From IMG/VR virus record IMGVR_UViG_3300022719_000329, positions 1 through 64,000 of that record: DNA of 64,000 nucleotides. The stretch is one strand, 5' to 3'. The notes beneath the pieces were generated by a model that saw only the letters and a list, made by a program, of their open reading frames with translations, was not told where the DNA came from and did not search any database. Origin of the DNA: a virus. Position numbers and translations under genes: made by a program. Below are positions 35,501 through 62,590 of the stretch, one piece after another (positions within the stretch are counted from its first letter, which is position 1; every line of letters begins with the position of its first letter).

Positions 35501-35529
35501 ATAATAAGGTATCAGGCACCCCATGTCAA
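35501..35529 (-). promoter_or_regulatory. sigma70-type promoter TTGACA-17-TATTAT for the left arm
   Basis: Minus strand reads TTGACAtggggtgcctgataccttATTAT-type layout, immediately upstream of the SD/ATG of 35481. Confidence 0.5.
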
Positions 35530-35653
35530 TAATTATCTTCCCCTCTAGGTAATTAGTACACTGGATATAAATTGATCCTCCCCTTTAGATTTGAAAGTGG
35601 TCCCAGTGTGTAACAGGCACCCCATATGTACTCCTGTACACGAACAGTTCAGC

Positions 35654-35679
35654 GGCATTATAGGGCCACCTATAATGCC
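35654..35679. promoter_or_regulatory. perfect 11+11 bp palindrome (operator candidate)
   Basis: GGCATTATAGG gcca CCTATAATGCC, abutting the AGGAGG SD of the first plus-strand gene. Confidence 0.45.
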
Positions 35680-35838: not shown

Positions 35839-35860
35839 TCCCTCGCTTCGCTCGGGAGGA

Positions 35861-35871
35861 GTATTTTCTCC
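35861..35871 (+). promoter_or_regulatory. promoter-like motif class B (GTATTTTCTCC)
   Basis: AT-rich 11-mer in GC-rich DNA, 87 nt upstream of the ATG at 35948. Confidence 0.45.
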
Positions 35872-35947: not shown

Positions 35948-36307
35948 ATGTCCGCCAACTCTCAGAACCTCTCGCTGCGCTTCGAGGACGTCCGCTTCCG
36001 TGCGCACATCCGTGAGCACGAGCAGACGACCTTCATCGGCTACGCCGACGCCACCCTGGTGGCGCCCAGCGTACTGCCCGATGGCTCGGACCTGAAGCTC
36101 CGCATCCGCGGGATCGAGGTGAAGCTCACCTCGAACGGCCCGCGGATCGACTTCAAGTCCGAGAAGGGTCGGGACGGTTCGTGGTACCCCGTGCTCTTCC
36201 CGAAGAGCGCGGAGTCGCGCACGGCCCTGACCGTGGCGCTGCTCGCGGACCCCACGGTCCGCGCGGTCGTCGACGCGCACCAGGAGCGCTTCGCCGCCCA
36301 GGCGTAG
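35948..36307 (+). CDS. SpoVG-fold nucleic-acid-binding protein, paralog 1
   Basis: 119 aa; TFIGYADATL..LKLRIRGIEVKL..FKSEKGRDGSWYPVLFPKSAESR matches the SpoVG strand/loop pattern. Confidence 0.6.
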   Translation: MSANSQNLSLRFEDVRFRAHIREHEQTTFIGYADATLVAPSVLPDGSDLKLRIRGIEVKLTSNGPRIDFKSEKGRDGSWYPVLFPKSAESRTALTVALLADPTVRAVVDAHQERFAAQA

Positions 36308-36353
36308 CGCTCGCACTCCGTGCTCCCTGGGTCCGATCCCCAGGGAGCACCAG

Positions 36354-36393
36354 GCCCTCACTCGCAGTCCGCTGCGGGTGAGGGCTTTTTTTT
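36354..36393 (+). terminator. intrinsic terminator
   Basis: 14-bp GC stem GCCCTCACTCGCAG/CTGCGGGTGAGGGC followed by T8. Confidence 0.8.
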
Positions 36394-36548: not shown

Positions 36549-36639
36549 GCTTCGCTCGCAGGGAGAGAACTCCCGATTAGTACGATTTTGAACGGGGGGA
36601 ACAAATCGTGGCCTCCCGTTACTAGAGAGAACTACCCAG

Positions 36640-36650
36640 GTATTTTCTCT
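36640..36650 (+). promoter_or_regulatory. promoter-like motif class B (GTATTTTCTCT)
   Basis: 98 nt upstream of the ATG at 36738. Confidence 0.45.
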
Positions 36651-36737: not shown

Positions 36738-37154
36738 ATGGCCGACATCAATCGGAAGATGGCCGAGATGCTCTGGAAGCAGGTCAGCCTGAACGTCGAT
36801 CGGTTCCACCCCAAGATCGTGGCTCACGAGAAGAGCACCTTCCTGGGCTACGCCGACGTGACCATCGAGCTGCCCAACCTCCCGGGCTTCAAGCTCAAGC
36901 TCCGGGGCATCGAGGCCAAGGTGCTCAAGGGCAACCCGCACCTCGACATGCCCACCGAGAAGGGCGCGGACGGCAAGTTCTACCCGCGCTACTTCCCGCT
37001 GAGCGGCGAGCTCCGGGCGGTGATGACCACCAAGCTCTTCCAGCACACCGACGTGGCCAGCGCTCTCGAGGCCGCCAAGCAGGCGGCCATCGACAGCGGC
37101 CGCACCGAGGCCCACCAGGCCGAGCCGGGCACCGACAACCCCTTCGCCGGGTAG
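36738..37154 (+). CDS. SpoVG-fold nucleic-acid-binding protein, paralog 2
   Basis: 138 aa; TFLGYADVTI..LKLRGIEAKV..MPTEKGADGKFYPRYFPLSGELR; C-terminal GTDNPFAG. Confidence 0.6.
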   Translation: MADINRKMAEMLWKQVSLNVDRFHPKIVAHEKSTFLGYADVTIELPNLPGFKLKLRGIEAKVLKGNPHLDMPTEKGADGKFYPRYFPLSGELRAVMTTKLFQHTDVASALEAAKQAAIDSGRTEAHQAEPGTDNPFAG

Positions 37155-37205
37155 CCCAGCGCCGGGTACCAGTCGGTACCACAAGAGAGCCCTCCACTCG
37201 AGGAT

Positions 37206-37244
37206 CCCCCCAACAGGGACCTCCGGGTGGGGGGCTTTTTTTTT
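37206..37244 (+). terminator. intrinsic terminator
   Basis: CCCCCCA/TGGGGGG stem followed by T9. Confidence 0.75.
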
Positions 37245-37645
37245 CGTACTAACCCGCCCGATCTAGAGATCCCACCCCCATGAGAGAACTAGGAAGTCCC
37301 TCCCTCGTTACGCTCTGGGGCCAAAGATATGGTACTGACCTTGTCCAGTTAGCTGTTCCTTGCCTGATCGATAGGTATCGATCGATAGAGATAGATAGGA
37401 GAGCCTGCTAGTCGTGGTACTAAGGAGGTGAGTACCAAGAGAGCAGGGAACCACTGGTACCTAGGTACCCAGATAGTAGAACCACTGAAACCCCAGTAAT
37501 CAGATAGTAGGACTAGAGGAGTCCCGGAACCACATGAGAGAATCGATCGAGTGAGTGCGATCGAGTACCCCAGTTGGTTCCTCCCATCCCACATCCAAGG
37601 TACCACTACAGCGAGCTGGCGAGCACTACAGCGCCCTTATAAGTA

Positions 37646-37659
37646 CTATATAGTTGCTC
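37646..37659 (+). promoter_or_regulatory. promoter-like motif class A variant (CTATATAGTTGCTC)
   Basis: Core TAGTTGCTC; 193 nt upstream of the ATG at 37839. Confidence 0.4.
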
Positions 37660-37838
37660 CCTCTCCAGGTCTATCTCCCTGTCTGCCCTACTGATTTCCT
37701 ACCAGGAGGGAAACCCTGAAAGAACTCCTCTCCTGAGCGATTCTAGAGCGTCTGATTGTGCATCTGGAGAGAGTCTCTATATGTATTACCAGACGCTACC
37801 CGACCGGTACCTAACCGGTACTAAACGAGGTGAACCAC

Positions 37839-38896: not shown

Positions 38897-39118
38897 ACTT
38901 GATCCTACCGGAAGGATGCATTCCTAGCACACAGCTGGCCTCGTGGCGGGGCTTGCCAAGGAGTATCCTGCTCTCCTCCCACAGGAGAGTCAACAATCTT
39001 TCCTTCCGGGGCCTCCAGGGCCATCCATTCGGAGATTGCAAGGATACTTACTGCCACACCTTGGATGGCCCTCCCGAAGTTTTGCTTAGGGAGGGCTGTC
39101 CTCCACTTCCAAGGGGCG
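38897..39118 (+). other. structured non-coding segment (several GC hairpins)
   Basis: Hairpins CTCTCC/GGAGAG, GGGCCATCCA/TGGATGGCCC (39018-39071) and CCTCCC/GGGAGG; no ORF. Confidence 0.25.
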
Positions 39119-39132
39119 CTAGGTAGTTGCTC
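39119..39132 (+). promoter_or_regulatory. promoter-like motif class A (CTAGGTAGTTGCTC)
   Basis: 54 nt upstream of the ATG at 39173. Confidence 0.5.
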
Positions 39133-39172
39133 CTCTTGTTGAACCAACTTCCCCACGGAGGTAAAAACCAAG

Positions 39173-39502
39173 ATGCAAGAAATCGGACCGGTGACCAAGT
39201 TCCGAGAGCTGGCTCAGATCTACCACGGTGTGACCGAGATGGAGGAGGGCCAGTTCGTACAACTGCCGAGTGGACTCTCGGCCCAAGTCAAGAAGTTCCG
39301 CTCCAAGAATCTGCGCTACATCGACTGGCGAGGCATCCGCTACGTGGAGCAGAACCCCAACTCCCGCTCGGCCTACGCCGCCAGGGCCCGCCAAGGTGCC
39401 AAGATCGTCTGGTGTATTCGGCTGCGGGACAACCAGTACCTCGGCCGCATCGAGCAGGACCAGGTGTTCATGAAGGAGCAGGCCTGGGCATCCCGGGCCT
39501 GA
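39173..39502 (+). CDS. hypothetical protein, paralog family EQNP (member 1)
   Basis: 109 aa; YVEQNPNSRSAYAARARQGAKIVWCIRLRDNQYLGRIEQDQVFMKE aligns with the 43259 protein. Confidence 0.55.
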   Translation: MQEIGPVTKFRELAQIYHGVTEMEEGQFVQLPSGLSAQVKKFRSKNLRYIDWRGIRYVEQNPNSRSAYAARARQGAKIVWCIRLRDNQYLGRIEQDQVFMKEQAWASRA

Positions 39503-39518
39503 ACCAAGAGGAGGGACT

Positions 39519-39815
39519 GTGCGTCAATTCTACACCGACGACTGGCCGGACGAAGAAGGTCAACCGCAGTTCTTCCTGATGGATAACATTCGTTGGGGGG
39601 AAACCGAGGCCTATGCATGCCAGCAGGCTAGGAGGCCCGAGGAATTGGTCAAGCTCGAACTCTCAGCCGGCGCCGTCCTCCTCATCCACCACGGTGGGAT
39701 AGAGGAGTTCCCGACCGTACCTGCAGCCCTGCGCCGCATGACCGAGATCATCGAAGAAGAAGAGCAGAAGCCTCTCTTAACCACCCACCCAGAGGAAAGG
39801 AAATCCCCATGCTGA
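39519..39815 (+). CDS. hypothetical protein
   Basis: 98 aa; GTG start after GGAGGGA. Confidence 0.45.
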   Translation: MRQFYTDDWPDEEGQPQFFLMDNIRWGETEAYACQQARRPEELVKLELSAGAVLLIHHGGIEEFPTVPAALRRMTEIIEEEEQKPLLTTHPEERKSPC

Positions 39816-39976
39816 ATTCGGAGACGAAGGAGAAGTTGCGCAAGCTGGTCTACGAGGCCGACACACGGTCGGCGAGCGCCAGGAACCGCATAGAGTCGCT
39901 GCGGCCTCTCGAGGCTCTGGAGGACATCCGCCGGGCCCAGGTGGTCCTCGCCAAGATCATCGGCATCCTGGCCTAG
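39809..39976 (+). CDS. small helical protein (55 aa)
   Basis: ATG overlaps the upstream stop (ATGCTGA); GC3-rich; below the track cutoff. Confidence 0.4.
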   Translation: MLNSETKEKLRKLVYEADTRSASARNRIESLRPLEALEDIRRAQVVLAKIIGILA

Positions 39977-40001
39977 CCAGAATCCCCACAGGAGAACTAC
40001 C

Positions 40002-40310
40002 ATGGGACTACGCTCCCTGAAGATCGTCGAGGAGGAGATCGCCAAGGTCATGCCTCGCCTTCGAGATGGCCCGATCCAGGTCGATGGCCGTACTCTCGCC
40101 AACATCCTGACCACTCTCCAAGCCCGCCTCAGCACTCGGATCGAGGCCGAGTGCATCGAGGTGGACGAAGACACCGCCGAAGCCCTTGATCGGCTGGCCG
40201 ACCCCGCCCAGGAGTGGGTGACCCACGACCAGGTCGAAGCTCACATCGGAAGACCCAACTGTGGGTGTGCCGACCATCGCGACCCGCTGCATCCCTGCCC
40301 TCACGACTAG
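40002..40310 (+). CDS. hypothetical protein
   Basis: 102 aa; AGGAGA SD. Confidence 0.45.
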   Translation: MGLRSLKIVEEEIAKVMPRLRDGPIQVDGRTLANILTTLQARLSTRIEAECIEVDEDTAEALDRLADPAQEWVTHDQVEAHIGRPNCGCADHRDPLHPCPHD

Positions 40311-40334
40311 GGGCAGTCCCGATTCCCTGAACTT

Positions 40335-40405
40335 GAACCAAGCAAGGGCTGCTTGGGTTCCGTGGGGAGAGCCCGGCCCTGGAGTGCAACCCAGGGCCGG
40401 GCTCC
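40335..40405 (+). terminator. tandem GC hairpins (U-tract-less terminator candidates)
   Basis: GAACCAAGCA/TGCTTGGGTTC, then the 14-bp stem GAGCCCGGCCCTGG/CCAGGGCCGGGCTC. Confidence 0.5.
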
Positions 40406-40555
40406 ATCCCCCGAAGTACGCAACTAGTCCCTCCCACCCATGAATCCCACCCTACCCCCAAAGAGATACCAATGCGTGACTGGGTGTTCACGGTGTTGCG
40501 CGTTCATGGTCGGACAATTCGCCCGGCTCCTTGCCGGTGCTCATGAGAGGACTAC

Positions 40556-40720
40556 ATGCAAACCGCGACCCTTCTGTGCCTGTTGCTGGCGATTATCGCC
40601 ATCACTGGGCTCTTGAGTGGCAAGCTAGATGAGACGGAGGATATCCGAATCTACTGGTCGAAGGCCGTTCGCCTTCTTCTGGGATTAGCCCTACTGTTCC
40701 ATCTGTTGAGCCTTTGGTAG
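40556..40720 (+). CDS. small membrane protein (54 aa)
   Basis: Two hydrophobic helices; below the track cutoff. Confidence 0.35.
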   Translation: MQTATLLCLLLAIIAITGLLSGKLDETEDIRIYWSKAVRLLLGLALLFHLLSLW

Positions 40721-40760
40721 GCTCTAACCCGAGGAACTAATACAACGGAGGCCAACAACC

Positions 40761-41069
40761 ATGACCGAGCATACTTGGTACAAGTGTACTCAGCCCTGCC
40801 ACAAGCCCCACTGCATGTTCTGTGAAGGTGGCCTCGGCTGGTGCACCGCCTGCGATGGTTTCGAAGGCTCGCTTCCCACCCACTGCCCGGGCCGCAAGAT
40901 CGGCGAGTCCGACCAGCAGCTAATCTACAAGAGCACTCTAGACTTCCGGGATGGCCAGTGGGTCAATCGGTCCCTGGAGAGCTGGGAACAGAGCCGTGAG
41001 TACGACCCCTCCCAGAGCGTGGAGATCGACCGTGCAGTCCTCCGCCTAAACCAGGAGATGACAACATGA
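40761..41069 (+). CDS. Cys-rich protein
   Basis: 102 aa; CTQPCHKPHCMFCEGGLGWCTACDG; GGAGG SD. Confidence 0.45.
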   Translation: MTEHTWYKCTQPCHKPHCMFCEGGLGWCTACDGFEGSLPTHCPGRKIGESDQQLIYKSTLDFRDGQWVNRSLESWEQSREYDPSQSVEIDRAVLRLNQEMTT

Positions 41070-41458
41070 GCAACGACGACAAGAAACTCGAAAGCCTCTA
41101 TCGCTCCACCGAAGTCACCAGTAGGGCTTGCGATGCCCTGCGCATGTCCTTGGAGACCATGCGCACCTCGGGATTCTTCGACGAGGCGGAGCTGGAGATC
41201 CTGGCCGCCATCGACGAAGGAGTCATAGAACTTCAAGAGCGCTTCACGGACCGCCGGCTGGACATGATCGCCCAGGTAGCCCCCGAAGCCTTGGCCGAGG
41301 CTGTCGAAGTGGCCGAGTCCATCGGCGCCGAGCCGGGCGAGGTGGAGGCCATCCAGGAGCGTGTCTACCAGCGCACTCTCCAGGCCGTTCGCGAAGACCC
41401 CCACTCTGCCGCCTTGGCCAACCAAGTGGCCAAGCGAGATGACGATCCCATCCACTAG
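41066..41458 (+). CDS. hypothetical acidic helical protein
   Basis: 130 aa; ATGA overlap with the upstream gene. Confidence 0.45.
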   Translation: MSNDDKKLESLYRSTEVTSRACDALRMSLETMRTSGFFDEAELEILAAIDEGVIELQERFTDRRLDMIAQVAPEALAEAVEVAESIGAEPGEVEAIQERVYQRTLQAVREDPHSAALANQVAKRDDDPIH

Positions 41459-41505
41459 AGGGAGCCTCGGTACTTGCCGGGGCTCCCTCTGCTACCTTGT
41501 CAGCT

Positions 41506-41519
41506 CTAGGTAGTTTCTC
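41506..41519 (+). promoter_or_regulatory. promoter-like motif class A (CTAGGTAGTTTCTC)
   Basis: 37 nt upstream of the ATG at 41543, just after the hairpin AGAGGGAGCC/GGCTCCCTCT. Confidence 0.45.
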
Positions 41520-41542
41520 CGGCTTTCGAGGAGGTAACTGGC

Positions 41543-42085
41543 ATGGCTTACATTGCCTGCATTGGGTCTCGGAGCCTGTCGGCCGAGCAAATCGAGACCT
41601 GCGAGACTCTCGGCCAGTTCATCGCCCGCTGTGGCCATGTCGTTTCTTCGGGTAACGCCGAAGGGGCAGACCAAGCCTTTCAGCGGGGCGCCGGGAAGGT
41701 GAGCGGGAAGAACGTCTCGGTACATCTGCCGTGGCCGGGGTTCAACCTGAACGTAGCCCTCACCTTCTACCAGTGCCGCATCGTCTCGGAGCTCGATTCC
41801 GACGTCTACCGGGAGTACGAGGAGATGGCTGCGAAGTACCATCCGAAGTGGAAGTTCTTGCGGCAGGGGGCCCGAAAGCTGCACACGCGAAACGTAGGCA
41901 TTCTGTTTCCTGAACCCCACACGCCGGTGAAGATGGTCATCGCCTGGCCGAGCCAGAAGCCGGGCGGCGGGGGCACTGGACAAGGCATGCGAATCGCCGA
42001 AGGTCTCGGCATTCCGCTCGTGGACATCTCGAACGCGGGCCGCACGGAGCTTTTCCATCTGTGCGAGCGCATCAGGAGCCTGTGA
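41543..42085 (+). CDS. SLOG-superfamily (DprA/Smf-like) Rossmann protein
   Basis: 180 aa; IACIGSRSL, VVSSGNAEGADQAF, GGGGTGQGMRIAEGLGIPL. Confidence 0.5.
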   Translation: MAYIACIGSRSLSAEQIETCETLGQFIARCGHVVSSGNAEGADQAFQRGAGKVSGKNVSVHLPWPGFNLNVALTFYQCRIVSELDSDVYREYEEMAAKYHPKWKFLRQGARKLHTRNVGILFPEPHTPVKMVIAWPSQKPGGGGTGQGMRIAEGLGIPLVDISNAGRTELFHLCERIRSL

Positions 42086-42255
42086 TGGTTGAGATCATTG
42101 GCTGGGCCTGTGTTGCCTGGACGGCTTTCGAAGTCCTGAGCTTGGTGCTGCGCACCACCAAGCCCCGGGCTCGTCAGCTGCGAGCCTGGGACTCCCAAGG
42201 CCGACCCGTGCGCGCGGAGGTGCTACAGTGGTTCAACTACTCGTCGCACTCCTGA
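42085..42255 (+). CDS. small membrane protein (56 aa)
   Basis: TGATG overlap with the upstream stop; N-terminal TM helix. Confidence 0.35.
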   Translation: MVEIIGWACVAWTAFEVLSLVLRTTKPRARQLRAWDSQGRPVRAEVLQWFNYSSHS

Positions 42256-42704
42256 CCTTCGCTCTGGCTGGAGGGGCCGAAGCGGAGGTCACGGCTACTG
42301 TCACCCGCCATGTTGACGGAGACACCTTCTACGTGTCCTTCCATGGCCAAGACCCCGTCAAGCTACGACTCGTTGGAGTCGACACCCCAGAAACCCGCCA
42401 TCCAACCAAACCCATCCAGTGCTACGGACCCCAAGCCTCCCACTTCATCAGCAGCTTCCTTCCAGTCGGAACCGAGGTCCGAATCCTTGCCGACTGGCCT
42501 TTCAAGGACCGCTACGATAGGCTGCTGGCCTACGTCTACACCCAGACCATCGATGGCTGGATCAACGTGAACGAGTTCTTGGTCCGGAGGGGTTTCGCCC
42601 GGGCCAGCCATCGCTTCAACTACGCACACAAGCAACGCCACTTGGAACTCGAGTCGACAGCGCAACAAGAACAAGCTGGGCTCTGGGGAGCCTGCGAGGA
42701 ATAG
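42228..42704 (+). CDS. secreted staphylococcal-nuclease (thermonuclease) homolog
   Basis: 158 aa; signal peptide; VDGDTF, LRLVGVDTPE, RYDRLLAYV, FLVRRGFA; GTG start after GGAGGT. Confidence 0.8.
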   Translation: MVQLLVALLTFALAGGAEAEVTATVTRHVDGDTFYVSFHGQDPVKLRLVGVDTPETRHPTKPIQCYGPQASHFISSFLPVGTEVRILADWPFKDRYDRLLAYVYTQTIDGWINVNEFLVRRGFARASHRFNYAHKQRHLELESTAQQEQAGLWGACEE

Positions 42705-42795
42705 ATGGGCGAGATGTTGCTGAGCGTACTCGTGATCATCTGGATCGTGGCTATCCTAATCCGGGTGGCCCAGAACTACTGAAAGGAACACTACC

Positions 42796-43188
42796 ATGCA
42801 CAACATGACCAAGAAGCTGCTCTTCCGGGCCTTCAACCAGCTTCGAGGCTTGGGCCAGCAGTTCGAGAAGATGAAGATCGTGGAGATCCGAGAGACTCTG
42901 CTCTTCTTGCGTTCCACCATTGACGAGGCCCTCCAAGCTTTACCTCCCGACGGAGCCGACGGGGCGCTCTACGCCATCGGGATCGAGCACACCGCGGGTG
43001 AGATGGGCATGACTTGGGGCCCGCACCCGAGTCTGGCTGAGGCCTTGCACCGGCTGGACCAACCCAACGCCAAGATCCTGCGCTTCATGCACACCAAGGA
43101 AACCAACGAGCCGATCTACGAGGAGGTGGCTCGCTGGAACGAGGCACAGCTCCACTGGGAGAACTTCCAAGGCGAGTGCCTATCCTAG
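42796..43188 (+). CDS. hypothetical protein
   Basis: 130-aa ORF. Confidence 0.45.
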   Translation: MHNMTKKLLFRAFNQLRGLGQQFEKMKIVEIRETLLFLRSTIDEALQALPPDGADGALYAIGIEHTAGEMGMTWGPHPSLAEALHRLDQPNAKILRFMHTKETNEPIYEEVARWNEAQLHWENFQGECLS

Positions 43189-43192
43189 AGAG

Positions 43193-43222
43193 CCTAGCCC
43201 CCGCCTCCTCGCGGGGGCTAGG
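43193..43222 (+). terminator. 12-bp GC hairpin overlapping the next promoter-like motif
   Basis: CCTAGCCCCCGC ctcctc GCGGGGGCTAGG; the 3-prime arm supplies the CTAGG of motif A. Confidence 0.5.
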
Positions 43223-43231
43223 TAGTCTCTC
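43218..43231 (+). promoter_or_regulatory. promoter-like motif class A (CTAGGTAGTCTCTC)
   Basis: 41 nt upstream of the GTG at 43259. Confidence 0.45.
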
Positions 43232-43258
43232 CATCCGTTCGAAAGGAGGTGAACCCTC

Positions 43259-43618
43259 GTGAGCGCAACCAAAACCAGTCCGGACGCGCCCCAGTGGGTG
43301 AATCTGGGCTCGGTGAGCCGCTACCCGCAGCTGACCGCCATCTACCAGGCCATCTGCGGGCGCGTGCTCTGGTTCTGGCTTCCCGAGGGGGATAGCCAGA
43401 CCCGATGCCGGATCAAGATCATGGGCTCGGACGCTAAGTTGGTGGCCGTGGACCATGATCACCGGCGCTACATCGAACAGAATCCCAAGACCCAGTCCAT
43501 CTACGCCCAGAAAGCCCGAGACGGTGTGCGCATCGTCTGGGTCATCGACACCCACACCGGCGACTTCATCGGCCGCATCGAAGATGGAGTTGTTTGGATG
43601 AAGGAGAGAAGTGCATGA
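43259..43618 (+). CDS. hypothetical protein, paralog family EQNP (member 2)
   Basis: 119 aa; YIEQNPKTQSIYAQKARDGVRIVWVIDTHTGDFIGRIEDGVVWMKE. Confidence 0.55.
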   Translation: MSATKTSPDAPQWVNLGSVSRYPQLTAIYQAICGRVLWFWLPEGDSQTRCRIKIMGSDAKLVAVDHDHRRYIEQNPKTQSIYAQKARDGVRIVWVIDTHTGDFIGRIEDGVVWMKERSA

Positions 43619-43908
43619 ACACTCAAGTGATCCACATCAAGGACGCGCCCCCGGGCTGGCGCTCCGACCCGCAGTACGTGTACATCGGGAGAGGCTCCAA
43701 GTGGGGTAATGAGTACTCCCATCTCCCGAGCTCCCGGGCCAAGTACCAGGTCAAGACCCGGGATGAAGCCTGCGACATGTTCGAACAGCATCAGCTGCCC
43801 GGTCTCATGGGAGACATCTCAGAGCTGAGGGGTAAGACCCTCGTCTGTTTCTGTCATCCCGAGCGATGCCATGGGCATACTCTGGCGAGGGCAGCTGACG
43901 GAGGCTAA
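43615..43908 (+). CDS. DUF4326-family protein
   Basis: 97 aa; VYIGRGSKWGNEYSH ... ELRGKTLVCFCHPERCHGHTLA; ATGA overlap with the upstream gene. Confidence 0.65.
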   Translation: MNTQVIHIKDAPPGWRSDPQYVYIGRGSKWGNEYSHLPSSRAKYQVKTRDEACDMFEQHQLPGLMGDISELRGKTLVCFCHPERCHGHTLARAADGG

Positions 43909-43910
43909 CC

Positions 43911-44117
43911 ATGGCCACCAAGACCGTTCAACGTGTGCTTCTCATCCGGACCCGGAATGGTGTGGTCCATCGGGGCCAGTTTGGGTATCATCTGGATATG
44001 ATGCTCAAGCTTCACATCGATCCGGACGACATCGTCGACACTGGATGGGTAGAAGACGACCAGGACAATTGGAGGGGTGGAAACTCTCGAGAGATCGAGA
44101 TCTACGCCCACGACTGA
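43911..44117 (+). CDS. hypothetical protein
   Basis: 68 aa; GGAGG SD. Confidence 0.45.
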   Translation: MATKTVQRVLLIRTRNGVVHRGQFGYHLDMMLKLHIDPDDIVDTGWVEDDQDNWRGGNSREIEIYAHD

Positions 44118-44137
44118 ACTACTGCATCTGATCAGCA

Positions 44138-44151
44138 CTAGGTAGTTGCTC
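44138..44151 (+). promoter_or_regulatory. promoter-like motif class A (CTAGGTAGTTGCTC)
   Basis: 51 nt upstream of the ATG at 44189. Confidence 0.5.
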
Positions 44152-44188
44152 ATCGTTTGCAATCCAACCACACACCGTGAGGTGAACC

Positions 44189-44800
44189 ATGCAGACCAGC
44201 TTCGAACGAGCCCAGTCCGAGGTAGGACGGATGCTCGAAGACCTCGGCGGCTCGGCCAACGCCTACGAACAGGCCAAGACTCGCAGCGCCCAGGCCGATG
44301 TGAATCCCTTCCAGAATCCGGAACCGCTCGACACCTCCGACCATCCCCACGATGACGAACCCGAGACCCTCTTCGGAGGCACTGGCGATGACAGCCGGCC
44401 AGTGGACGAAGCTCTGTGCGGGGGATCCGTCGAGGAGCCTCGGGGATTCTCACCCTTCCCCCCGATCAGCGAGCGCTACGAACTGGTGGGCAACGTGGAG
44501 GACATGGGAGAGCTCTCCGATCTCTTTGATGCCTTCGTCCACGCTTCGCTGACCAAAGAGCCGGGCGAGGTGAAGATGCAGACCGGCACCTACGAGATCC
44601 TGTGCACCGAGAACGGCTGGTGCCTGCTCGACGGCGCCAAGGGCCTGCGCTATCTGCTGGACGACGGGGAAGCCAGCAACATGGATCCGGACGTGCAGCT
44701 CGACGACACCGTCGTCTGGGTCATCCGCGCCCGTGACGATGCCGACCTCGGCTACATCCATCAGGGCTGGGTCTACCACAACCGGGAAGCCCAGGGCTAG
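44189..44800 (+). CDS. acidic protein with EQNP-family-like C-terminal hairpin
   Basis: 203 aa; C-terminal VVWVIRARDDADLGYIHQGWVY echoes IVWVIDTHTGDFIGRIEDGVVW. Confidence 0.5.
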   Translation: MQTSFERAQSEVGRMLEDLGGSANAYEQAKTRSAQADVNPFQNPEPLDTSDHPHDDEPETLFGGTGDDSRPVDEALCGGSVEEPRGFSPFPPISERYELVGNVEDMGELSDLFDAFVHASLTKEPGEVKMQTGTYEILCTENGWCLLDGAKGLRYLLDDGEASNMDPDVQLDDTVVWVIRARDDADLGYIHQGWVYHNREAQG

Positions 44801-44940
44801 CCCCTGGGCTCTCCCGAGCTCAAGAAGTACCCAGAGTTCCCCGCAAGATGCGGGGCAAGTTCCTCTAATTGGCAGCACCCACAAATCGATCGAGCGAGTT
44901 AGTTTTGCGCGGTCGTGATAGATCGCCAAGGAGTGCCATC

Positions 44941-45396
44941 ATGTCGAATCTGAACCAGGCTGATGGCTCCAACCCTTTCGACGTCTACGTGACCAGAAAG
45001 GAGGAGCCGTCGGGCTCCTCCCCGGGGGCCCGCATCAACAGGGCTCGCAAGCAAGCGGAAGCCCAGCGAGCTCGCACAGAGCTCGCCAGAACCCAACTCG
45101 AAGAGCCGGATCCCGTCGAGGATCATCACGACCACACCATCTACGAAGAGATGGTAGAGGAGTTCCCGGAAGCAATGCATGCTGTGATCGAGATGCCGAC
45201 TCCTCGTCGCCTCTGGCTGGCTCTGTGGTTCGTGATCTGGGTAACCCTATCGGGTATCGCTTGCCAGGCGAATCTGCTGGGCGGACTCATCCTCACCATG
45301 CCGCTATTCTTCCTGTGCATGTTCCTGGCTCGTGCTCCCCAGATCTACCAAGGCACGTTGGGAGATGGATTCCGCAACTCAAGCTCTGGGGTTTAG
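44941..45396 (+). CDS. membrane protein
   Basis: 151 aa from the ATG at 44941; two C-terminal TM helices. Confidence 0.45.
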   Translation: MSNLNQADGSNPFDVYVTRKEEPSGSSPGARINRARKQAEAQRARTELARTQLEEPDPVEDHHDHTIYEEMVEEFPEAMHAVIEMPTPRRLWLALWFVIWVTLSGIACQANLLGGLILTMPLFFLCMFLARAPQIYQGTLGDGFRNSSSGV

Positions 45397-45405
45397 TTCT
45401 GGAAC

Positions 45406-45428
45406 GTTAGACGGAAAGACCGTCTAAC
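45406..45428 (+). terminator. 9-bp hairpin after the stop codon
   Basis: GTTAGACGG aaaga CCGTCTAAC; no U-tract. Confidence 0.4.
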
Positions 45429-45473
45429 TGGATCTAGGCCCCAATCACCAACACAACCGGAAAGGATTCCGAA

Positions 45474-45977
45474 ATGCAGCTTCGAACCGCAACTCTGGCC
45501 ATGACGATCTTGGCCACGTCCCTGATCGCAGGCAACTGCGGACCTCCGCCGGAGCAGATGTTCCTCGAGTCCACGGCGGTGCCCATCGGAGGCAGCGCCA
45601 ACATGCCGGTCGAGTTCCGGCAGACCGCGGCTTCGTCTCTGGGGGGCCCTTTCTGCCGGGCCACGGCCTCGTTCCAGCTCAACGATCCCGACGGTCACTT
45701 CTCCATCGACCCTGGCCAGACCACGTTCCCGAACCTGCCCGACTCCTGTATCCCGGGCGCCGGCGGGCCCGGCGAGGACAACATCTTCAGCTTCGACGTG
45801 CTCTGCTTCGGAGGCGGGATTCCTGCCAATCAGACCTTCGTGCGTTTCAAGGTGGACGGGGGCGAAGGGCCGTCCGGCGCGCTCGCCCAGATCACCGGGC
45901 TCACTGCCACCATCGAACCCTGTGGCGCAGGGCCGACGTCGATTCCCATCAACAACCCGCTCCTGCAGCTGCAATAG
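45474..45977 (+). CDS. secreted protein
   Basis: 167 aa; signal peptide MQLRTATLAMTILATSLIAGNC. Confidence 0.45.
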   Translation: MQLRTATLAMTILATSLIAGNCGPPPEQMFLESTAVPIGGSANMPVEFRQTAASSLGGPFCRATASFQLNDPDGHFSIDPGQTTFPNLPDSCIPGAGGPGEDNIFSFDVLCFGGGIPANQTFVRFKVDGGEGPSGALAQITGLTATIEPCGAGPTSIPINNPLLQLQ

Positions 45978-46119
45978 CTGCGCGAGCCCGGCCAAAGGAT
46001 TACCCTCGGTAACTCGCCGGGGGTTTTCCTTTATCCGGCCCCCAAGTTCCAACCCGGAACAATCTGGCTCGGACGGTCGAGTCTATTTACTCTAACCCTT
46101 TCGAGGAGGTAAACCTGCC

Positions 46120-46710
46120 GTGCAAGAAATCTACGGAGACCTGTTCGAGAGCATTCTCGCAGACGCCATCTGCATTACTACCAACGGCGTCGTGAACCGG
46201 CAAGGCGCCAACATCATGGGTCGAGGCTGCGCTGGGGAGGCCAAGCGGCGCTGGCCCGGGATCCAGTTCATCGTTGGAACCTGCATCCAAGGCTCCGGAA
46301 ACAACGCCATCTGCCTGACTCACGAGGAGGATGGCCAGATCTTCCTTCAGGAACGCCATGGGCAGCCTAGCTACCCTCGGCACAATGTTCCCTACCACAT
46401 CATGAGCTTCCCAACCAAGCCAGACATCGGCTACGCCAACTACGACTGCTCCAACATCGTCTCCACATGGCGTGACAAGGCCAATCCAGGAGATGCCGTG
46501 CCGGGCTGGGCGGCGGAGAGCAAGCTAGACCTCATCGAGACCAGCGCTCATCGCCTAGTAGCAGAGGCTAACGCTCGAGAGTGGAAGAGCATCGTACTTC
46601 CCCGCCCCGGATGTGGCGCGGGAGAGCTCAGCTGGGGGGACGAAGTCCGTCCTCTCTTGGAACAGATCTTCGATGATCGGTTCTACATCATCACCTTTCC
46701 ACCGAGGTAA
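46120..46710 (+). CDS. macro-domain protein (Poa1p-like)
   Basis: 196 aa; GDLFESILADAICITTNGVVNRQGANIMGRGCAGEAKRRWP and LPRPGCGAGELSW match the macro-domain ADP-ribose pocket pattern; GTG start after GGAGGT. Confidence 0.65.
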   Translation: MQEIYGDLFESILADAICITTNGVVNRQGANIMGRGCAGEAKRRWPGIQFIVGTCIQGSGNNAICLTHEEDGQIFLQERHGQPSYPRHNVPYHIMSFPTKPDIGYANYDCSNIVSTWRDKANPGDAVPGWAAESKLDLIETSAHRLVAEANAREWKSIVLPRPGCGAGELSWGDEVRPLLEQIFDDRFYIITFPPR

Positions 46711-46715
46711 ATGAA

Positions 46716-46946
46716 ATGCGCCTCTGGATACGTCGTGCCTTTCGGGGTTTCCTGTGGGCGTCGGCTCTGGTCCTCATTCTGCTCTTCGAGCTGGCCATTC
46801 GTAGCCTCGACAACGAGCTCATCCATCACGAAGAGGGCCTCCACCAACATGAGCAACGCCTCAACGACATCGATGACCTGCTTCGAGGCGATCGCCTCTG
46901 GCACTGGGAGTGGATGCCCAATCCCCCCGACGGAGTCTGGACCTGA
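46716..46946 (+). CDS. small membrane protein
   Basis: 76 aa; N-terminal TM; GAGGT SD. Confidence 0.4.
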   Translation: MRLWIRRAFRGFLWASALVLILLFELAIRSLDNELIHHEEGLHQHEQRLNDIDDLLRGDRLWHWEWMPNPPDGVWT

Positions 46947-46976
46947 ACAGATTCAACCCCTGAAAGGAGAACCGCA

Positions 46977-47246
46977 GTGCCGATTCTCTTCTACCGTAAT
47001 ACTCATCAAGCCCCGGAATTTCGAGACCTGCGGGTCGAGCTCGAGAACTCTACCGCCCTGCACAACCACATCGTCCATTTCCTGACCCACCAGCAGGGCA
47101 AGACGCTACCGGAGATCTTGGCCGGTGTGGCTGAGTACAATCGACAGTTTCCGTACGACGGTACCACCACCCCCGAAGAAGCCATCCTGGATCTGGCCGA
47201 AGGTCTGCAGAACGCCTCCATTCGTATGGAAGAGGTCCCGGAATGA
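46977..47246 (+). CDS. hypothetical protein
   Basis: 89 aa; GTG start after AAAGGAGA. Confidence 0.4.
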   Translation: MPILFYRNTHQAPEFRDLRVELENSTALHNHIVHFLTHQQGKTLPEILAGVAEYNRQFPYDGTTTPEEAILDLAEGLQNASIRMEEVPE

Positions 47247-47560
47247 GCGCTACTATCAACGCCTATGAGATTCGCCGAGGCGAGTTACCGGCCATCGTCA
47301 CCGAGATCTGGGAGCTCGGGGGTACTTCCCTCCGAGATCACCTGACCGACTACGCCAAGAGCAACGAGAGCATCTTGGAGATTCACCAGCATCCCGAAGA
47401 TGCGACGACCGTTCGCTTTCGGGTCGCGGATCTTCCGTCCTTCACCAAGGAGCTGCTAGATCATGAGGACTGGTGGTGGGATCTAGGAGCGGGCATGCCA
47501 GTGCTAGCCCGCCACATGCGCGAAGACCCCCGCTACCAGTGGTGGATCCACGTCTACTAG
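47243..47560 (+). CDS. hypothetical protein
   Basis: 105 aa; ATGA overlap with the upstream gene. Confidence 0.45.
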   Translation: MSATINAYEIRRGELPAIVTEIWELGGTSLRDHLTDYAKSNESILEIHQHPEDATTVRFRVADLPSFTKELLDHEDWWWDLGAGMPVLARHMREDPRYQWWIHVY

Positions 47561-47571
47561 GAGAAGAACTC

Positions 47572-47841
47572 ATGCAGCTCGAGATCGATCCGCCCCTGGT
47601 GCTGATAAAGCACACCCCACACGACACCTACCACACCTTCGAGATCTGGTTCGTTCCGGACAAGGAAGAAGTAGAACGCCTGCTCAACGACGTGGGCTTG
47701 GCCTCGGCCCTGGAGAAGGTGTGCGAAGGCCCCTATCTCGAAGCCCGGCAACAGGTGATCGAGTTCCTCGATGACCGCTACCCGCCCTACCCCCAGATCT
47801 GGCTGGCCAAGGACCAAGACATCTTCGCACTGGTTGGCTAG
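47572..47841 (+). CDS. hypothetical protein
   Basis: 89 aa from the ATG after AGGAGA. Confidence 0.45.
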   Translation: MQLEIDPPLVLIKHTPHDTYHTFEIWFVPDKEEVERLLNDVGLASALEKVCEGPYLEARQQVIEFLDDRYPPYPQIWLAKDQDIFALVG

Positions 47842-47842
47842 C

Positions 47843-48046
47843 ATGGCCCACTGCTCTCGCTGCAACCATGTGACAGCCGGGCGAAGAAAGATCCGGCCGG
47901 ATCTATGCGGCCCCTGCCTCCTCGGTAAACCCGTGGGGTGGTGGGATGATCTCTACGAAACACTGGCCAAGCTCGGAATCCCCGAGCCAGGAAAGGACAA
48001 TGAGCGCCCAAAGCAACCGCAAGGAGAAGAAGGCCCTCAAGAGTGA
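47843..48046 (+). CDS. small zinc-ribbon protein
   Basis: 67 aa; CSRC ... CGPC. Confidence 0.4.
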   Translation: MAHCSRCNHVTAGRRKIRPDLCGPCLLGKPVGWWDDLYETLAKLGIPEPGKDNERPKQPQGEEGPQE

Positions 48047-48179
48047 TCTGGCTCGGCTCAAGGCCCGGCTGGCCCGCCTGGAGAAGAGCCCTCGGAAGGG
48101 CTCCATGGGCCACAACGCTGCTATCAACACTGTCCGCAACGCCATCGAGTACACTAAGCGCCGTTTGAGTGTGCTCTAG
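48000..48179 (+). CDS. small basic coiled-coil protein
   Basis: 59 aa; overlaps the 3-prime end of the previous ORF in another frame; only one of the two may be real over the overlap. Confidence 0.35.
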   Translation: MSAQSNRKEKKALKSDLARLKARLARLEKSPRKGSMGHNAAINTVRNAIEYTKRRLSVL

Positions 48180-48187
48180 GAAAGTCT

Positions 48188-48322
48188 ATGCCTCGACCCT
48201 GCTCGGGGCTTCTTCGCGAAGCGATCGGCGACAACGAGATCCACAAGCTCGTCGCCATCCAGGCGGACGGAACCCGCATCGAGCTGGAAGGGCCCATCGG
48301 CTTCGAAGTGTGGGTCAAGTAG
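48188..48322 (+). CDS. possible small protein (44 aa)
   Basis: GC3-rich micro-ORF; its stop lies inside the motif A copy at 48315. Confidence 0.3.
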   Translation: MPRPCSGLLREAIGDNEIHKLVAIQADGTRIELEGPIGFEVWVK

Positions 48323-48328
48323 TTGCTC
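48315..48328 (+). promoter_or_regulatory. promoter-like motif class A variant (TCAAGTAGTTGCTC)
   Basis: Exact core GTAGTTGCTC, 33 nt upstream of the helicase ATG. Confidence 0.45.
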
Positions 48329-54753: not shown

Positions 54754-54789
54754 AAGACAGAAGGCCGGAAGATCTAGAGGGAATAGCCC

Positions 54790-54800
54790 TCTATTTTCTC
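54790..54800 (+). promoter_or_regulatory. promoter-like motif class B variant (CTATTTTCTCC)
   Basis: 45 nt upstream of the ATG at 54835. Confidence 0.4.
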
Positions 54801-57450: not shown

Positions 57451-57586
57451 CCCTCCCCCAGGAAGTCCTTACTGCCTGGACGCTTCCATGGCCTCTCACG
57501 GCCTGGAGGAACTCCCACCACACCTTAATTCCACCACCCGCAGCTCCTTCTGGGAGCTCCTCCTTCGCGTTGGCGGAGAGAATCAG

Positions 57587-57597
57587 GTATTTTCTCC
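57587..57597 (+). promoter_or_regulatory. promoter-like motif class B (GTATTTTCTCC)
   Basis: 87 nt upstream of the ATG at 57674. Confidence 0.45.
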
Positions 57598-59975: not shown

Positions 59976-59993
59976 CCCCTGGGCGCCAGCGTC

Positions 59994-60035: not shown

Positions 60036-60075
60036 ATCGTAGGGTCTTCTTCTCCTAATGAGGGCCCATAAGGAA

Positions 60076-60086
60076 GTATTTTCTCC
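60076..60086 (+). promoter_or_regulatory. promoter-like motif class B (GTATTTTCTCC)
   Basis: 78 nt upstream of the ssb ATG at 60154. Confidence 0.45.
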
Positions 60087-61053: not shown

Positions 61054-61073
61054 ATTTTCTTGGTACCTTGACG

Positions 61074-62560: not shown

Positions 62561-62589
62561 TTGACATAGCGGGGACGATAGCATATAAT
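62561..62589 (+). promoter_or_regulatory. perfect sigma70 consensus promoter TTGACA-17-TATAAT
   Basis: TTGACAtagcggggacgatagcaTATAAT, 86 nt upstream of the phosphatase ATG. Confidence 0.6.
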
Positions 62590-62590
62590 T

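What the first reader, a model, noticed from the sequence alone, without database searches (positions are those of the whole stretch)
39119..48328. Recurrent promoter-like motif class A: CTAGGTAGTTGCTC
By eye I found copies at 36536, 37646, 39119, 41506, 43218, 44138 and 48315, plus an AT-rich variant CTAGGTAATTAG at 35545. All are on the plus strand and all are intergenic or at gene ends. Five sit 33-54 nt upstream of a start codon with a GGAGG SD. The 10-mer core GTAGTTGCTC is exact in five copies, whereas a given 10-mer is expected about 0.06 times per strand in 64 kb. At 43193-43231 a terminator hairpin shares bases with the motif, and at 41456-41519 one sits just upstream of it, giving terminator-promoter junctions. 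The motif does not resemble the sigma70 -35/-10 promoters used in the left arm. It may therefore be a site for a phage-encoded or alternative sigma/RNAP, a regulator box, or an RNA-processing site.
Basis: seen in the sequence. Interest (0 to 1): 0.7.

Follow-up and report, generated by a model that had tools for sequence, protein, structure and literature searches.

The report
Phage-specific promoter motif, right arm
A short DNA signal (core GTAKTYNCTC) recurs on one strand only, in the gaps before gene clusters, in the GC-rich half of an uncultured ~300-kb salt-pan phage and its relatives; it is most likely that half's own promoter, read by something other than the host's standard sigma-70 polymerase.

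Summary
The degenerate core TAKTYKCTC occurs 12 times on the + strand and 0 times on the - strand between 35.5 and 61.4 kb, against about 0.3 expected. Eleven of the 12 copies are intergenic (P ~8e-7), lying 28-198 nt before a start codon.

"Class A" (CTAGGTAGTTGCTC) and a T-rich form (AGGTATTTTCTCC) are one family. The copy at 35545 is not a member. The exact 10-mer occurs four times, not five.

Three related phages from other samples keep the motif at matching positions:
- At 85-89% DNA identity the core is unchanged while the flanks diverge, and one homology block starts 3 nt before the motif.
- At about 62% protein identity, 9 copies lie on the + strand and 0 on the - strand (0.08 expected).
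- At about 42% identity the sequence has drifted but the layout is kept.

There is no -35 element. A pyrimidine-rich spacer leads to a conserved T|G-purine step 17-18 nt after the core TA, which I predict is the transcription start.

Consensus sigma-70 promoters drive the 45%-GC left arm, so the motif is a second promoter type confined to the 60%-GC arm. No RNA polymerase or sigma gene was found in the ~109 kb I could reach of a ~296-kb genome, so what reads the motif is unknown. This is a new member of a known kind.

The parts
35857..35870 (+). Motif copy (T-rich form) AGGAGTATTTTCTC, 86 nt before the first SpoVG-like gene (35948)
   Evidence: unchanged in L005
36535..36548 (+). Motif copy ACCCGTAGTTGCTC, the first of two before the gene at 36738
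36636..36649 (+). Motif copy CCAGGTATTTTCTC, 97 nt before the second SpoVG-like gene (36738)
37289..37302 (+). Weak variant CTAGGAAGTCCCTC just after the terminator at 37188-37244; membership uncertain
   Evidence: 9.9 bits; also present in L005
37646..37659 (+). Motif copy CTATATAGTTGCTC, 188 nt before the gene at 37839
39119..39132 (+). Motif copy CTAGGTAGTTGCTC, 49 nt (from the core TA) before the start at 39173. Homology with relative L005 resumes at 39116, so this is a mosaic junction
40420..40433 (+). Weak variant GCAACTAGTCCCTC (TAGTCGCTC in L005), following two hairpins and preceding the gene at 40556
41506..41519 (+). Motif copy CTAGGTAGTTTCTC, 32 nt before the start at 41543 (DprA-like gene)
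43218..43231 (+). Motif copy CTAGGTAGTCTCTC, 36 nt before the GTG start at 43259
44138..44151 (+). Motif copy CTAGGTAGTTGCTC, 46 nt before the start at 44189
48315..48328 (+). Motif copy TCAAGTAGTTGCTC. Its TAG is the stop codon of the upstream ORF. It lies 28 nt before the helicase start at 48348. In relative L079 it reads TAGTTACTC
54787..54800 (+). Motif copy (T-rich) CCCTCTATTTTCTC, 43 nt before the start at 54835
57583..57596 (+). Motif copy (T-rich) TCAGGTATTTTCTC, 86 nt before the start at 57674
60072..60085 (+). Motif copy (T-rich) GGAAGTATTTTCTC, 77 nt before the SSB gene start at 60154
39139..39143 (+). Example of the second conserved block (TTGAA): a T|G-purine step 17-18 nt after the core TA, the predicted transcription start. 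An equivalent block follows most copies
   Evidence: inference; not mapped
36353..36393 (+). Intrinsic terminator (long stem plus T8) after SpoVG-like gene 1; the next gene therefore needs its own promoter
37188..37244 (+). Intrinsic terminator (stem plus T9) after SpoVG-like gene 2
39067..39097 (+). Hairpin without a T-run, ending 21 nt before the motif at 39119. L005 has an unrelated hairpin at the same place
41457..41490 (+). Strong hairpin (16-bp stem) ending 15 nt before the motif at 41506
43194..43221 (+). Hairpin CTAGCCCCCGC...GCGGGGGCTAG that overlaps the motif's CTAG. One stem pair changes on both sides in L005 (G-C to A-T)
35501..35529 (-). Consensus sigma-70 promoter TTGACA-17-TATTAT that starts the leftward (45% GC) arm; conserved in L005 and L202. 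This is the contrast class
35648..35676 (+). Possible weak sigma-70 promoter (TTCAGC-17-TATAAT) for the first rightward gene, a 48-aa CxxC...CxxC protein (35692-35838)
   Evidence: read by eye, below the scan's threshold
62561..62589 (+). Perfect sigma-70 consensus TTGACA-17-TATAAT before a low-GC inserted gene (62675); the relative L079 has no call for this gene

Best explanation
The motif is the core of a phage-specific promoter for the rightward, GC-rich arm of a huge phage (~296 kb). That arm carries small orphan genes, nucleases, a helicase, SSBs and SpoVG-like proteins.

Anatomy, numbered from the T of the core TA (T0):
- weak purines at -12, -8 and -3;
- G at -1, then T0 A1 K2 T3 Y4 N5 C6 T7 C8;
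- an A-poor, pyrimidine-rich spacer at positions 9-15;
- T16, G17, then purines at 18 and 19.

I infer that transcription starts at the G or A at positions 17-18. That puts the conserved block at about -18 to -9, with no -35 element. Each unit runs from a motif, through one or more genes, to a hairpin or terminator, and the next motif follows directly.

The left arm of the same phage uses consensus sigma-70 promoters, and the motif lacks the TTGACA/TATAAT layout. It is probably not plain host sigma-70 holoenzyme.

Shown: recurrence, strand and position bias, conservation, co-variation of the motif with phage lineage, and the absence of sigma-70-type sites.
For: 1. 12 copies on + and 0 on - against ~0.3 expected; 11 of 12 intergenic, P = 8e-7. 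All position-weight hits of 17 bits or more are on the + strand of the right arm.
2. Position: 28-198 nt before start codons that have their own SD. In several gaps of 70-84 nt, a hairpin and the motif are the only recognisable features (43189-43258, 41459-41542).
3. True terminators with T8-T9 runs precede 36535, 36636 and 37646, so the downstream genes need new initiation.
4. No sigma-70-like site is found on the + strand in 35-50 kb. No conserved column lies further upstream than -12.
5. Purifying selection. In L005 (85-89% nt identity) 8 of 8 shared strong copies keep the 9-mer exactly; the ninth shared site is the weak variant at 40425. In the comparison, which includes one mis-anchored pair, the motif region scored 91% identity against about 75% in the flanks. 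The T-rich copies are identical in L079.
6. Lineage depth. L202 (SpoVG-like protein 62% identical) has 9 copies of GTAKTYNCTC on + and 0 on - in its right arm, against 0.08 expected, all in gaps. L205 (42% identical) has AGG(A/T)TTTTT.CCT...TTTGA, with the same spacing to TGA. This is the drift pattern expected of a promoter evolving together with its reader.
7. The second block, T16 G17 R18, exceeds the 99th percentile of random columns across 23 sites from two phages.
8. A homology block between the window and L005 begins at 39116, 3 nt before a motif, as expected where promoter-flanked modules are exchanged.
9. Jumbo phages that encode RNA polymerases show a conserved ~10-nt motif, AT-rich and centred near -10, before their early operons (PMC7598289). 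This is the same shape as seen here.
Against: - No 5' ends are mapped; the start site is a prediction.
- No RNA polymerase, sigma, gp55-like or other known specificity factor was detected. I covered the window by Pfam, 30 window proteins by PHROGs, and the flanks by their precomputed Pfam marks. About 187 kb of the genome was out of reach.
- Most hairpins before class-A copies lack a T-run. Read-through transcription is therefore possible, and in that case the motif would also be present in RNA.
- The CTCC of the motif can pair with the downstream GGAG in some leaders.
- One strong copy lies inside a gene, at window-equivalent 80496.
Confidence: 0.6

Rival explanations
1. A leader element that acts during elongation or in the RNA, not an initiation site. 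Examples would be an ops-like loading or pause site for the phage's NusG-family protein, or a processing or stability site that cuts a long read-through transcript into gene-cluster mRNAs.
For: - The phage encodes a divergent NusG/LoaP-like protein (L003 16046-16579).
- Class A shares GGTAG with the E. coli ops element GGCGGTAGnnTG (own knowledge).
- Hairpins before many copies have no T-run, so read-through is plausible.
- CUCC-GGAG pairing with the SD occurs in several leaders.
Against: - The T-rich copies and all L202 copies have GGTAT, not GGTAG.
- A loading site is needed once per operon, not every 1-4 kb.
- Copies after T8-T9 terminators have no other promoter candidate upstream.
- The NusG-like gene sits in the other arm, just upstream of the terminase and structural genes, which is a more natural target.
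- Leader folding z-scores are mostly unremarkable and the pairing is not universal.
- No compensatory changes involve the motif itself.
Confidence: 0.15
2. An operator: the binding site of a phage DNA-binding regulator that overlaps otherwise unrecognised promoters and co-ordinates the arm. One candidate regulator is the set of SpoVG-like proteins encoded at the start of the arm.
For: - At least three SpoVG-like paralogues (a fourth is possible) sit behind T-rich copies with long leaders and strong terminators.
- The SpoVG fold is supported: pLDDT 88, and the top 10 PDB matches are all SpoVG.
- SpoVG proteins bind nucleic acids (own knowledge).
- The motif is a single block about 10 bp long, the size of a protein site.
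Against: - The motif is asymmetric and strictly co-oriented with the genes, and it keeps a fixed distance to a T|GR step. That fits a polymerase better than a typical dimeric regulator.
- No separate promoter-like element recurs beside it.
- An operator reading still leaves the arm's promoters unidentified.
Confidence: 0.12
3. A recombination or mobility boundary repeat that marks the ends of exchangeable gene cassettes and has no role in transcription.
For: One homology block between the window and L005 starts 3 nt before a motif. Gene content differs between relatives in several inter-motif segments.
Against: - Most other breakpoints (37841, 39502, 42086, 44813, 45396) are not at motifs.
- The motif is always before genes, with a fixed orientation and an SD-compatible distance.
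- It is conserved at 8 of 8 shared strong sites where no exchange has occurred.
- Recombination at shared promoters is a known by-product, not an alternative function (own knowledge: T4-type promoter/stem-loop repeats).
Confidence: 0.05

Closest known systems
Early-promoter motifs of jumbo phages that carry their own multisubunit RNA polymerases (phiKZ, AR9, PhiR1-37)
   Same: A conserved block of about 10 nt, AT-richer than its surroundings, with no -35 element. It can be found bioinformatically before presumed early operons of a >200-kb phage, is centred near -10 to -13, and has a phage-specific sequence (PMC7598289).
   Different: No split beta/beta' polymerase genes were found in the ~109 kb read. 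This phage also carries consensus sigma-70 promoters, so unlike phiKZ it is not independent of host polymerase. The sequence (GTAKTYNCTC) is unrelated to those motifs.
T7/T3/SP6-type single-subunit RNA polymerase promoters
   Same: A single contiguous recognition block upstream of a G start, and gene-cluster units bounded by hairpins. The consensus drifts between related phages while the geometry is kept (family features from own knowledge).
   Different: In T7-type promoters the conserved block runs unbroken through -1/+1 (about 23 bp). Here positions 9-15 are variable. No single-subunit polymerase gene was seen.
T4 late promoters (TATAAATA, gp55/gp33/clamp) and T4 middle promoters (MotA box)
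   Same: Host polymerase is redirected to a promoter that lacks a normal -35, by means of one short phage-specific block (own knowledge). The phage encodes a clamp loader.
   Different: The sequence differs, and the block sits further upstream (-18 to -9) than a -10 element. No gp55, gp33, MotA or AsiA homologue was detected.
ops / JUMPStart elements read by RfaH-type NusG paralogues
   Same: A short, strand-specific leader motif containing GGTAG, and a NusG-family gene in the genome.
   Different: Many copies per arm rather than one per operon. Half of the copies lack GGTAG. No separate upstream promoter is present.
Promoter-plus-stem-loop repeats at module borders in T4-type phages (PeSLs), and start-associated sequences (SAS) of cluster K mycobacteriophages
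   Same: A repeated intergenic motif next to hairpins at the edges of exchangeable small-gene modules.
   Different: PeSLs carry ordinary sigma-70 early promoters. SAS lie only a few bases from the start codon and include the ribosome-binding site, whereas this motif lies 28-198 nt upstream with a separate SD. Features of these families are from own knowledge.

Membership tests
Sigma-70 (housekeeping) promoter | A TTGACA-like -35 hexamer 16-18 bp upstream of a TATAAT-like -10 hexamer | tested here: not met
   No + strand site in 35-50 kb passes the scan. No conserved column lies further upstream than -12 from the core TA across 23 sites.
Sigma-70 (housekeeping) promoter | A -10 hexamer with A at -11 and T at -7, ending 6-8 nt before the start | tested here: not met
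   If TAKTYN is read as the hexamer, its last base is variable (T in 11 of 23 sites). The conserved T|GR step lies 11-12 nt after it, not 6-8. The start site itself is unmapped.
Jumbo-phage virion-polymerase early promoter | A conserved, relatively AT-rich motif of about 10 nt, centred near -10, before early operons | tested here: met
   The 10-nt core has about 3-5 G+C in an arm of ~60% GC. It lies before clusters of small orphan genes and is centred at about -13 from the predicted start (definition from PMC7598289).
Jumbo-phage virion-polymerase early promoter | Phage-encoded multisubunit RNA polymerase genes (split beta/beta') | tested here: inconclusive
   None found in contig positions 8417-117481. 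About 187 kb of the 295,848-bp genome could not be fetched.
Jumbo-phage virion-polymerase early promoter | Transcription independent of host polymerase and of new protein synthesis | not testable with these tools
   This needs infection experiments. The consensus sigma-70 promoters in the left arm argue that host polymerase is used for at least part of the genome.
T7-like single-subunit polymerase promoter | A contiguous conserved block of 17-23 bp that includes the start site | tested here: not met
   The conserved core (-1 to +8) and the T|GR block (16-19) are separated by a variable pyrimidine-rich spacer.
T7-like single-subunit polymerase promoter | A single-subunit RNA polymerase gene in the genome | tested here: inconclusive
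   Not found in the ~109 kb read; the rest was unreachable.
ops / RfaH-type recruitment element | The GGCGGTAGnnTG consensus in the transcribed leader, downstream of a separate promoter, about once per operon | tested here: not met
   Only GGTAG is shared, and only by class A. There are 12 copies in 26 kb. Gaps of 70-84 nt hold only a hairpin and the motif.
ops / RfaH-type recruitment element | A specialised NusG paralogue is encoded | tested here: met
   The 177-aa protein scores about equally against NusG (50 bits) and LoaP (50 bits), below both curated cut-offs.
Start-associated sequences (cluster K mycobacteriophages) | A motif a few bases from the start codon that includes the ribosome-binding site | tested here: not met
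   The motif lies 28-198 nt from the start, and a separate GGAGG-type SD lies between them.

The most novel reading that the evidence does not exclude
This lineage of ~300-kb phages keeps two genome compartments that differ both in base composition (45% against 60% GC, almost entirely at third codon positions) and in promoter type (consensus sigma-70 against GTAKTYNCTC). On this reading the GC-rich compartment is read by a transcription device of a kind not yet described. That device could be a polymerase or a polymerase-retargeting factor with no detectable similarity to known ones, possibly among the orphan or SpoVG-like early proteins.
Probability: 0.25. Interest if true: 0.75.

Novelty: new member of a known kind. 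Interest (0 to 1): 0.5.

Why it matters
Huge uncultured phages are known almost only from gene content, and how they schedule transcription is largely unknown. This case gives a promoter signal that can be read from sequence alone. The signal holds over three levels of divergence and splits the genome into a host-style (sigma-70) half and a phage-style half, and the split coincides with a conserved 15-point GC step.

The signal provides:
- a way to predict transcription units in this lineage;
- a bait sequence for finding the unknown polymerase or specificity factor;
- a test case for whether different transcription systems, or escape from host silencing of AT-rich DNA, can hold two base compositions apart within one phage genome.

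Tried and rejected
- Near-identity search of 36-48.5 kb against 50,697 phage records found no match. TerL, helicase and actin-like proteins have only distant phage relatives.
- IMG/VR: the helicase has no relatives there. The exact 14-mer gives 69 single hits on unrelated contigs, which is chance level.
- Walking along the Logan contig through cluster look-ups reached positions 8417-117481. The JGI-only protein P0049 is not on record, so the rest of the genome stayed out of reach.
- The 1152-aa protein at 7441-10899 was considered as a possible polymerase. It has no Pfam, PHROG or PDB match, and its sequence is a serial repeat (GF..EFVSASGSLQ.QID) typical of a fibre protein. Rejected.
- Sigma-54: the GG to GC spacing is 6, not 11. 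Also checked by eye and rejected: ECF sigma, SigB-type GGGTAT, the Bacteroidetes TAnnTTTG element, and the MotA box. With the MotA box, the start codon is too close for a box at -30 at sites 41511 and 48320.
- Anti-SD hairpin idea: folding of 13 leaders gave z-scores mostly between -1.6 and +0.9, and the pairing was inconsistent.
- Rfam found only the tRNA at gathering thresholds. Weak hits in 36.3-37.9 kb are terminator hairpins.
- A full-text search for the motif strings returned only primer sequences.
- A possible chimeric assembly at the GC step was rejected. The same junction occurs in independent samples (L005) and in the distant L202.

Full report
**Context.** The window is part of Logan contig SRR23862439_33861 (117,527 bp). 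The sample is a Namib Desert salt-pan microbial-mat or halite metagenome. Several of its proteins are also recorded, identical, on a JGI contig of 295,848 bp, so the element is a huge phage of about 296 kb. The gene content fits this:
- The flank just left of the window carries the large terminase, a probable portal and neighbouring large proteins without family matches.
- A long leftward arm (window 1-35,500, all genes on the - strand) holds a clamp loader, DNA polymerase III delta, NDK, dUTPase, GMP reductase, peptide deformylase, methionine aminopeptidase, an actin-like protein and a repeat-rich fibre-like protein.
- A rightward arm from 35.6 kb consists mostly of small orphan genes, with a few nucleases, a Dda/PIF1 helicase and SSBs.
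- GC jumps from about 45% to about 60% exactly at the point where transcription diverges.

**The observation.** All listed copies exist at the stated coordinates. The 14-mer with mismatches is a poor descriptor: it gives 10 hits against 3.7 expected. The signal is a shorter degenerate core. TAKTYKCTC gives 18 hits in the window against 4.3 expected, and 0 of 100 shuffles reached that number. Inside 35,525-61,403 there are 12 hits on + and 0 on -, against Markov expectations of 0.32 and 0.57. Eleven of the 12 lie outside called genes, which leave 23% of the region noncoding (P = 8e-7). The twelfth, at 48320, uses its TAG as the stop codon of the upstream ORF.

A position-weight scan of 81.6 kb separates cleanly. 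Every hit of 17 bits or more is on the + strand between 35.8 and 80.5 kb, and the left arm reaches 15.4 bits at most. Two claims need correcting. The exact 10-mer occurs four times, not five. The 'variant' at 35545 is not a member: it does not fit the core, and it lies in a stretch that the close relative replaces with unrelated sequence.

**Anatomy.** I aligned 23 sites, 14 from this phage and 9 from the distant relative L202. Numbering from the T of the core TA gives:
- weak purines at -12, -8 and -3, then G at -1;
- T0, A1, K2, T3, Y4, N5, C6, T7, C8;
- positions 9-15 variable but pyrimidine-rich and almost free of A;
- T16, G17, then purines at 18 and 19, each carrying 0.60-0.75 bits at positions 16-18.

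Random columns of this depth reach 0.33 bits at the 99th percentile. Nothing upstream of -12 is conserved, so there is no -35 element. Distances from the core TA to the next start codon are 28-198 nt, with a separate GGAGG-type SD in between.

Strong hairpins end just before many copies: 39067-39097, 41457-41490, and 43194-43221, which overlaps the motif's CTAG. True terminators with T8-T9 runs follow the first two genes of the arm, at 36353-36393 and 37188-37244. The arm therefore reads as a chain of units, each running from a motif through its genes to a hairpin.

**Comparative evidence.** Cluster look-ups gave relatives at three distances.
- *L005, L006 and L007 (runs SRR17165153, SRR17165145 and SRR17165167).* These are 85-89% identical in DNA to the window, in blocks interrupted by replaced, inserted or deleted genes. 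L005 has 9 core hits on + and 0 on -, against 0.48 expected. Eight of them are the shared strong sites, and all eight keep the 9-mer exactly; the ninth is the counterpart of the weak variant at 40425. In the comparison, which includes one mis-anchored pair, the motif region scored 91% identity against about 75% in the flanks. At 39119 the sequence upstream is unrelated between the two phages, and homology resumes at 39116, 3 nt before the motif. L005 has a different hairpin at that spot. The hairpin before 43218 carries a change on both sides of one stem pair.
- *L079 (SRR17165164).* It keeps the T-rich copies at the positions matching 54792, 57588, 60077 and 66690. The site before the helicase reads TAGTTACTC.
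- *L202 (SRR31638526).* Its SpoVG-like protein is 62% identical. It has the same two-arm layout, the same conserved leftward TTGACA/TATTAT promoter and the same GC step. GTAKTYNCTC occurs 9 times on the + strand of its right arm, always in gaps, and 0 times elsewhere, against 0.08 expected.
- *L205 (42% identity).* The sequence has drifted to AGG(A/T)TTTTT.CCT...TTTGA or AGGTTTTTTCTT...TTTGA, with the same spacing to TGA.

A signal that is frozen among close relatives, and that drifts with the lineage while keeping its geometry, is how phage-specific promoters behave.

**Why a promoter, and why not sigma-70.**
- Consensus sigma-70 promoters are present in this phage, on the - strand of the left arm: 35529-35501 (TTGACA-17-TATTAT), 24308-24280, 16760-16732 and 6787-6759.
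- On the right arm the sigma-70 promoters read by eye lie in the low-GC stretch at about 61-63.6 kb. The clearest is a perfect TTGACA-17-TATAAT at 62561-62589, before a gene that the relative L079 lacks.
- On the + strand of 35-50 kb the scan finds none.
- Genes that follow T-run terminators must be re-initiated, and the motif is the only recurrent candidate. In 70-84-nt gaps nothing else is recognisable.
- At 41511 and 48320 the SD begins 7-8 nt after the core. The start must therefore lie at or just after the motif, which fits the conserved T|GR step.
- The first rightward gene (35692-35838, a 48-aa CxxC...CxxC protein) has a perfect TATAAT with a poor -35 (35648-35676). It may be the one host-transcribed gene at the head of the arm. 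Any link between this protein and motif recognition is speculation.

**What reads the motif?** This is unresolved. I covered the window by Pfam, 30 window proteins by PHROGs and selected proteins by NCBIfam. The flanks, contig positions 8417-117481, carry precomputed Pfam marks. None of these showed an RNA polymerase subunit, a sigma factor or any known retargeting factor. Nearly every right-arm protein is an orphan. About 187 kb of the genome could not be fetched.

The shape of the signal matches what is described for jumbo phages that carry their own polymerases: a conserved, relatively AT-rich block of about 10 nt near -10 before early operons, differing from phage to phage (PMC7598289). 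Unlike phiKZ, this phage clearly also uses host-type promoters.

**Rivals.**
- *Loading site for the phage's NusG/LoaP-like protein.* Class A shares GGTAG with ops. However, the T-rich and L202 copies lack GGTAG, there are far too many copies per arm, there is no separate promoter upstream, and the NusG-like gene sits in front of the terminase and structural genes in the other arm.
- *RNA-level anti-SD or processing role.* CUCC-GGAG pairing appears in some leaders but not all, and folding energies are not unusual.
- *Operator for the SpoVG-like proteins.* This cannot be excluded. At least three paralogues head the arm. The model has pLDDT 88, and the ten best PDB matches are all SpoVG. It would still leave the promoters unidentified, and the strict orientation plus the fixed distance to T|GR fit a polymerase better.
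- *Pure recombination boundary.* Most breakpoints are not at motifs.

**Verdict.** The finding is real, larger than reported, and best explained as a lineage-specific, non-sigma-70 promoter class for the GC-rich arm of an uncultured huge phage (confidence about 0.6). As a kind of thing it is known; the consensus, the lineage and the unidentified reader are new. The most interesting aspect is that promoter type and base composition change together at one point of the genome, and that this arrangement is conserved across the lineage.

Noticed in passing
window ~35,600 (left 1-35,500 against right 35,600-61,000); L202 ~8,000: GC steps sharply from about 45% to about 60% exactly where the two arms diverge. 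The difference lies mostly at third codon positions (GC3 0.35-0.5 against 0.65-0.83). The same step is present in the distant relative L202, so it is a conserved lineage feature and not an assembly chimera or a recent graft.
   Followed up: partly
window 35948-36307, 36738-37154, 55696-56109 (possibly also 57674-58213): A family of SpoVG-like paralogues, each behind a T-rich motif copy with a long leader; the first two are followed by strong T-run terminators. The AlphaFold model has pLDDT 88, and the ten best PDB matches are all SpoVG. These look like abundant early nucleic-acid-binding proteins.
   Followed up: partly
window 61126-61317 (+): A 63-aa protein ending in GGQ passes the curated NCBIfam cut-off for the prokaryotic ubiquitin-like protein Pup (54 bits against 41.45) and Pfam Pup (58 bits). 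A phage-borne Pup hints at an actinobacterial or nitrospiral type of host, or at tampering with host pupylation.
   Followed up: partly
window 37155-37838, core element 37545-37565: A gene-free stretch of 684 nt contains GATCGAGTGAGTGCGATCGAG. This element recurs, nearly unchanged, at the matching place in L005, L202 and L205. L205 also has about seven ATCGGTA repeats nearby. It could be an origin of replication or a noncoding RNA. There is no Rfam match.
   Followed up: partly
window 61,050-63,600: Low-GC genes (endonuclease VII at 61404-62057, a metallophosphatase at 62675-63436), of which at least the metallophosphatase has its own consensus sigma-70 promoter (62561-62589). L079 has no calls for the endonuclease VII and metallophosphatase genes, so they look like recently inserted cassettes.
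   Followed up: partly
window 20281-21624 (-): An actin-like protein (Pfam Volactin 1e-65, weak MreB/MamK). Its only phage-database relatives are two uncultured phages of 485-595 kb.
   Followed up: no
L003 16046-16579 (about 6 kb left of window position 1): A divergent NusG-family protein that scores equally against NusG and the specialised paralogue LoaP. It lies just upstream of the terminase and structural genes and may be an antiterminator for the late operon.
   Followed up: partly
window 28655-29170 (-), 17062-17865 (-); L002 20024-20245; tRNAs at 63441-63516 and beyond: Translation-related genes are present: peptide deformylase, methionine aminopeptidase and an IF-1 homologue, plus tRNA-Gln (two), tRNA-Leu and tRNA-Arg. 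This is typical of huge phages.
   Followed up: no
window 7441-10899 (-): A 1152-aa protein built of serial repeats of about 45 aa (GF..EFVSASGSLQ.QID.ID), with no family or PDB match. It is probably a fibre, and it sits among metabolic genes rather than in the structural block.
   Followed up: partly
L202 11,100-12,900: A second recurrent motif, CCCGCC..CAAAA(C/A)GTACCA...AGGAG, lies immediately before five start codons in the distant relative. I did not look for it in the window.
   Followed up: no
window 50507, 51142, 56130 (+ strand) and 34771 (- strand): The 12-mer CCAACTGGAGAA recurs four times, always in the sense of the local genes and just before start codons. It is probably a shared ribosome-binding context.
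   Followed up: no
window ~59,289-60,043 (+): An ORF with a signal-peptide-like start lies in a 919-nt stretch where the public gene call placed a - strand gene instead. It is a likely mis-call in GC-rich sequence.
   Followed up: no
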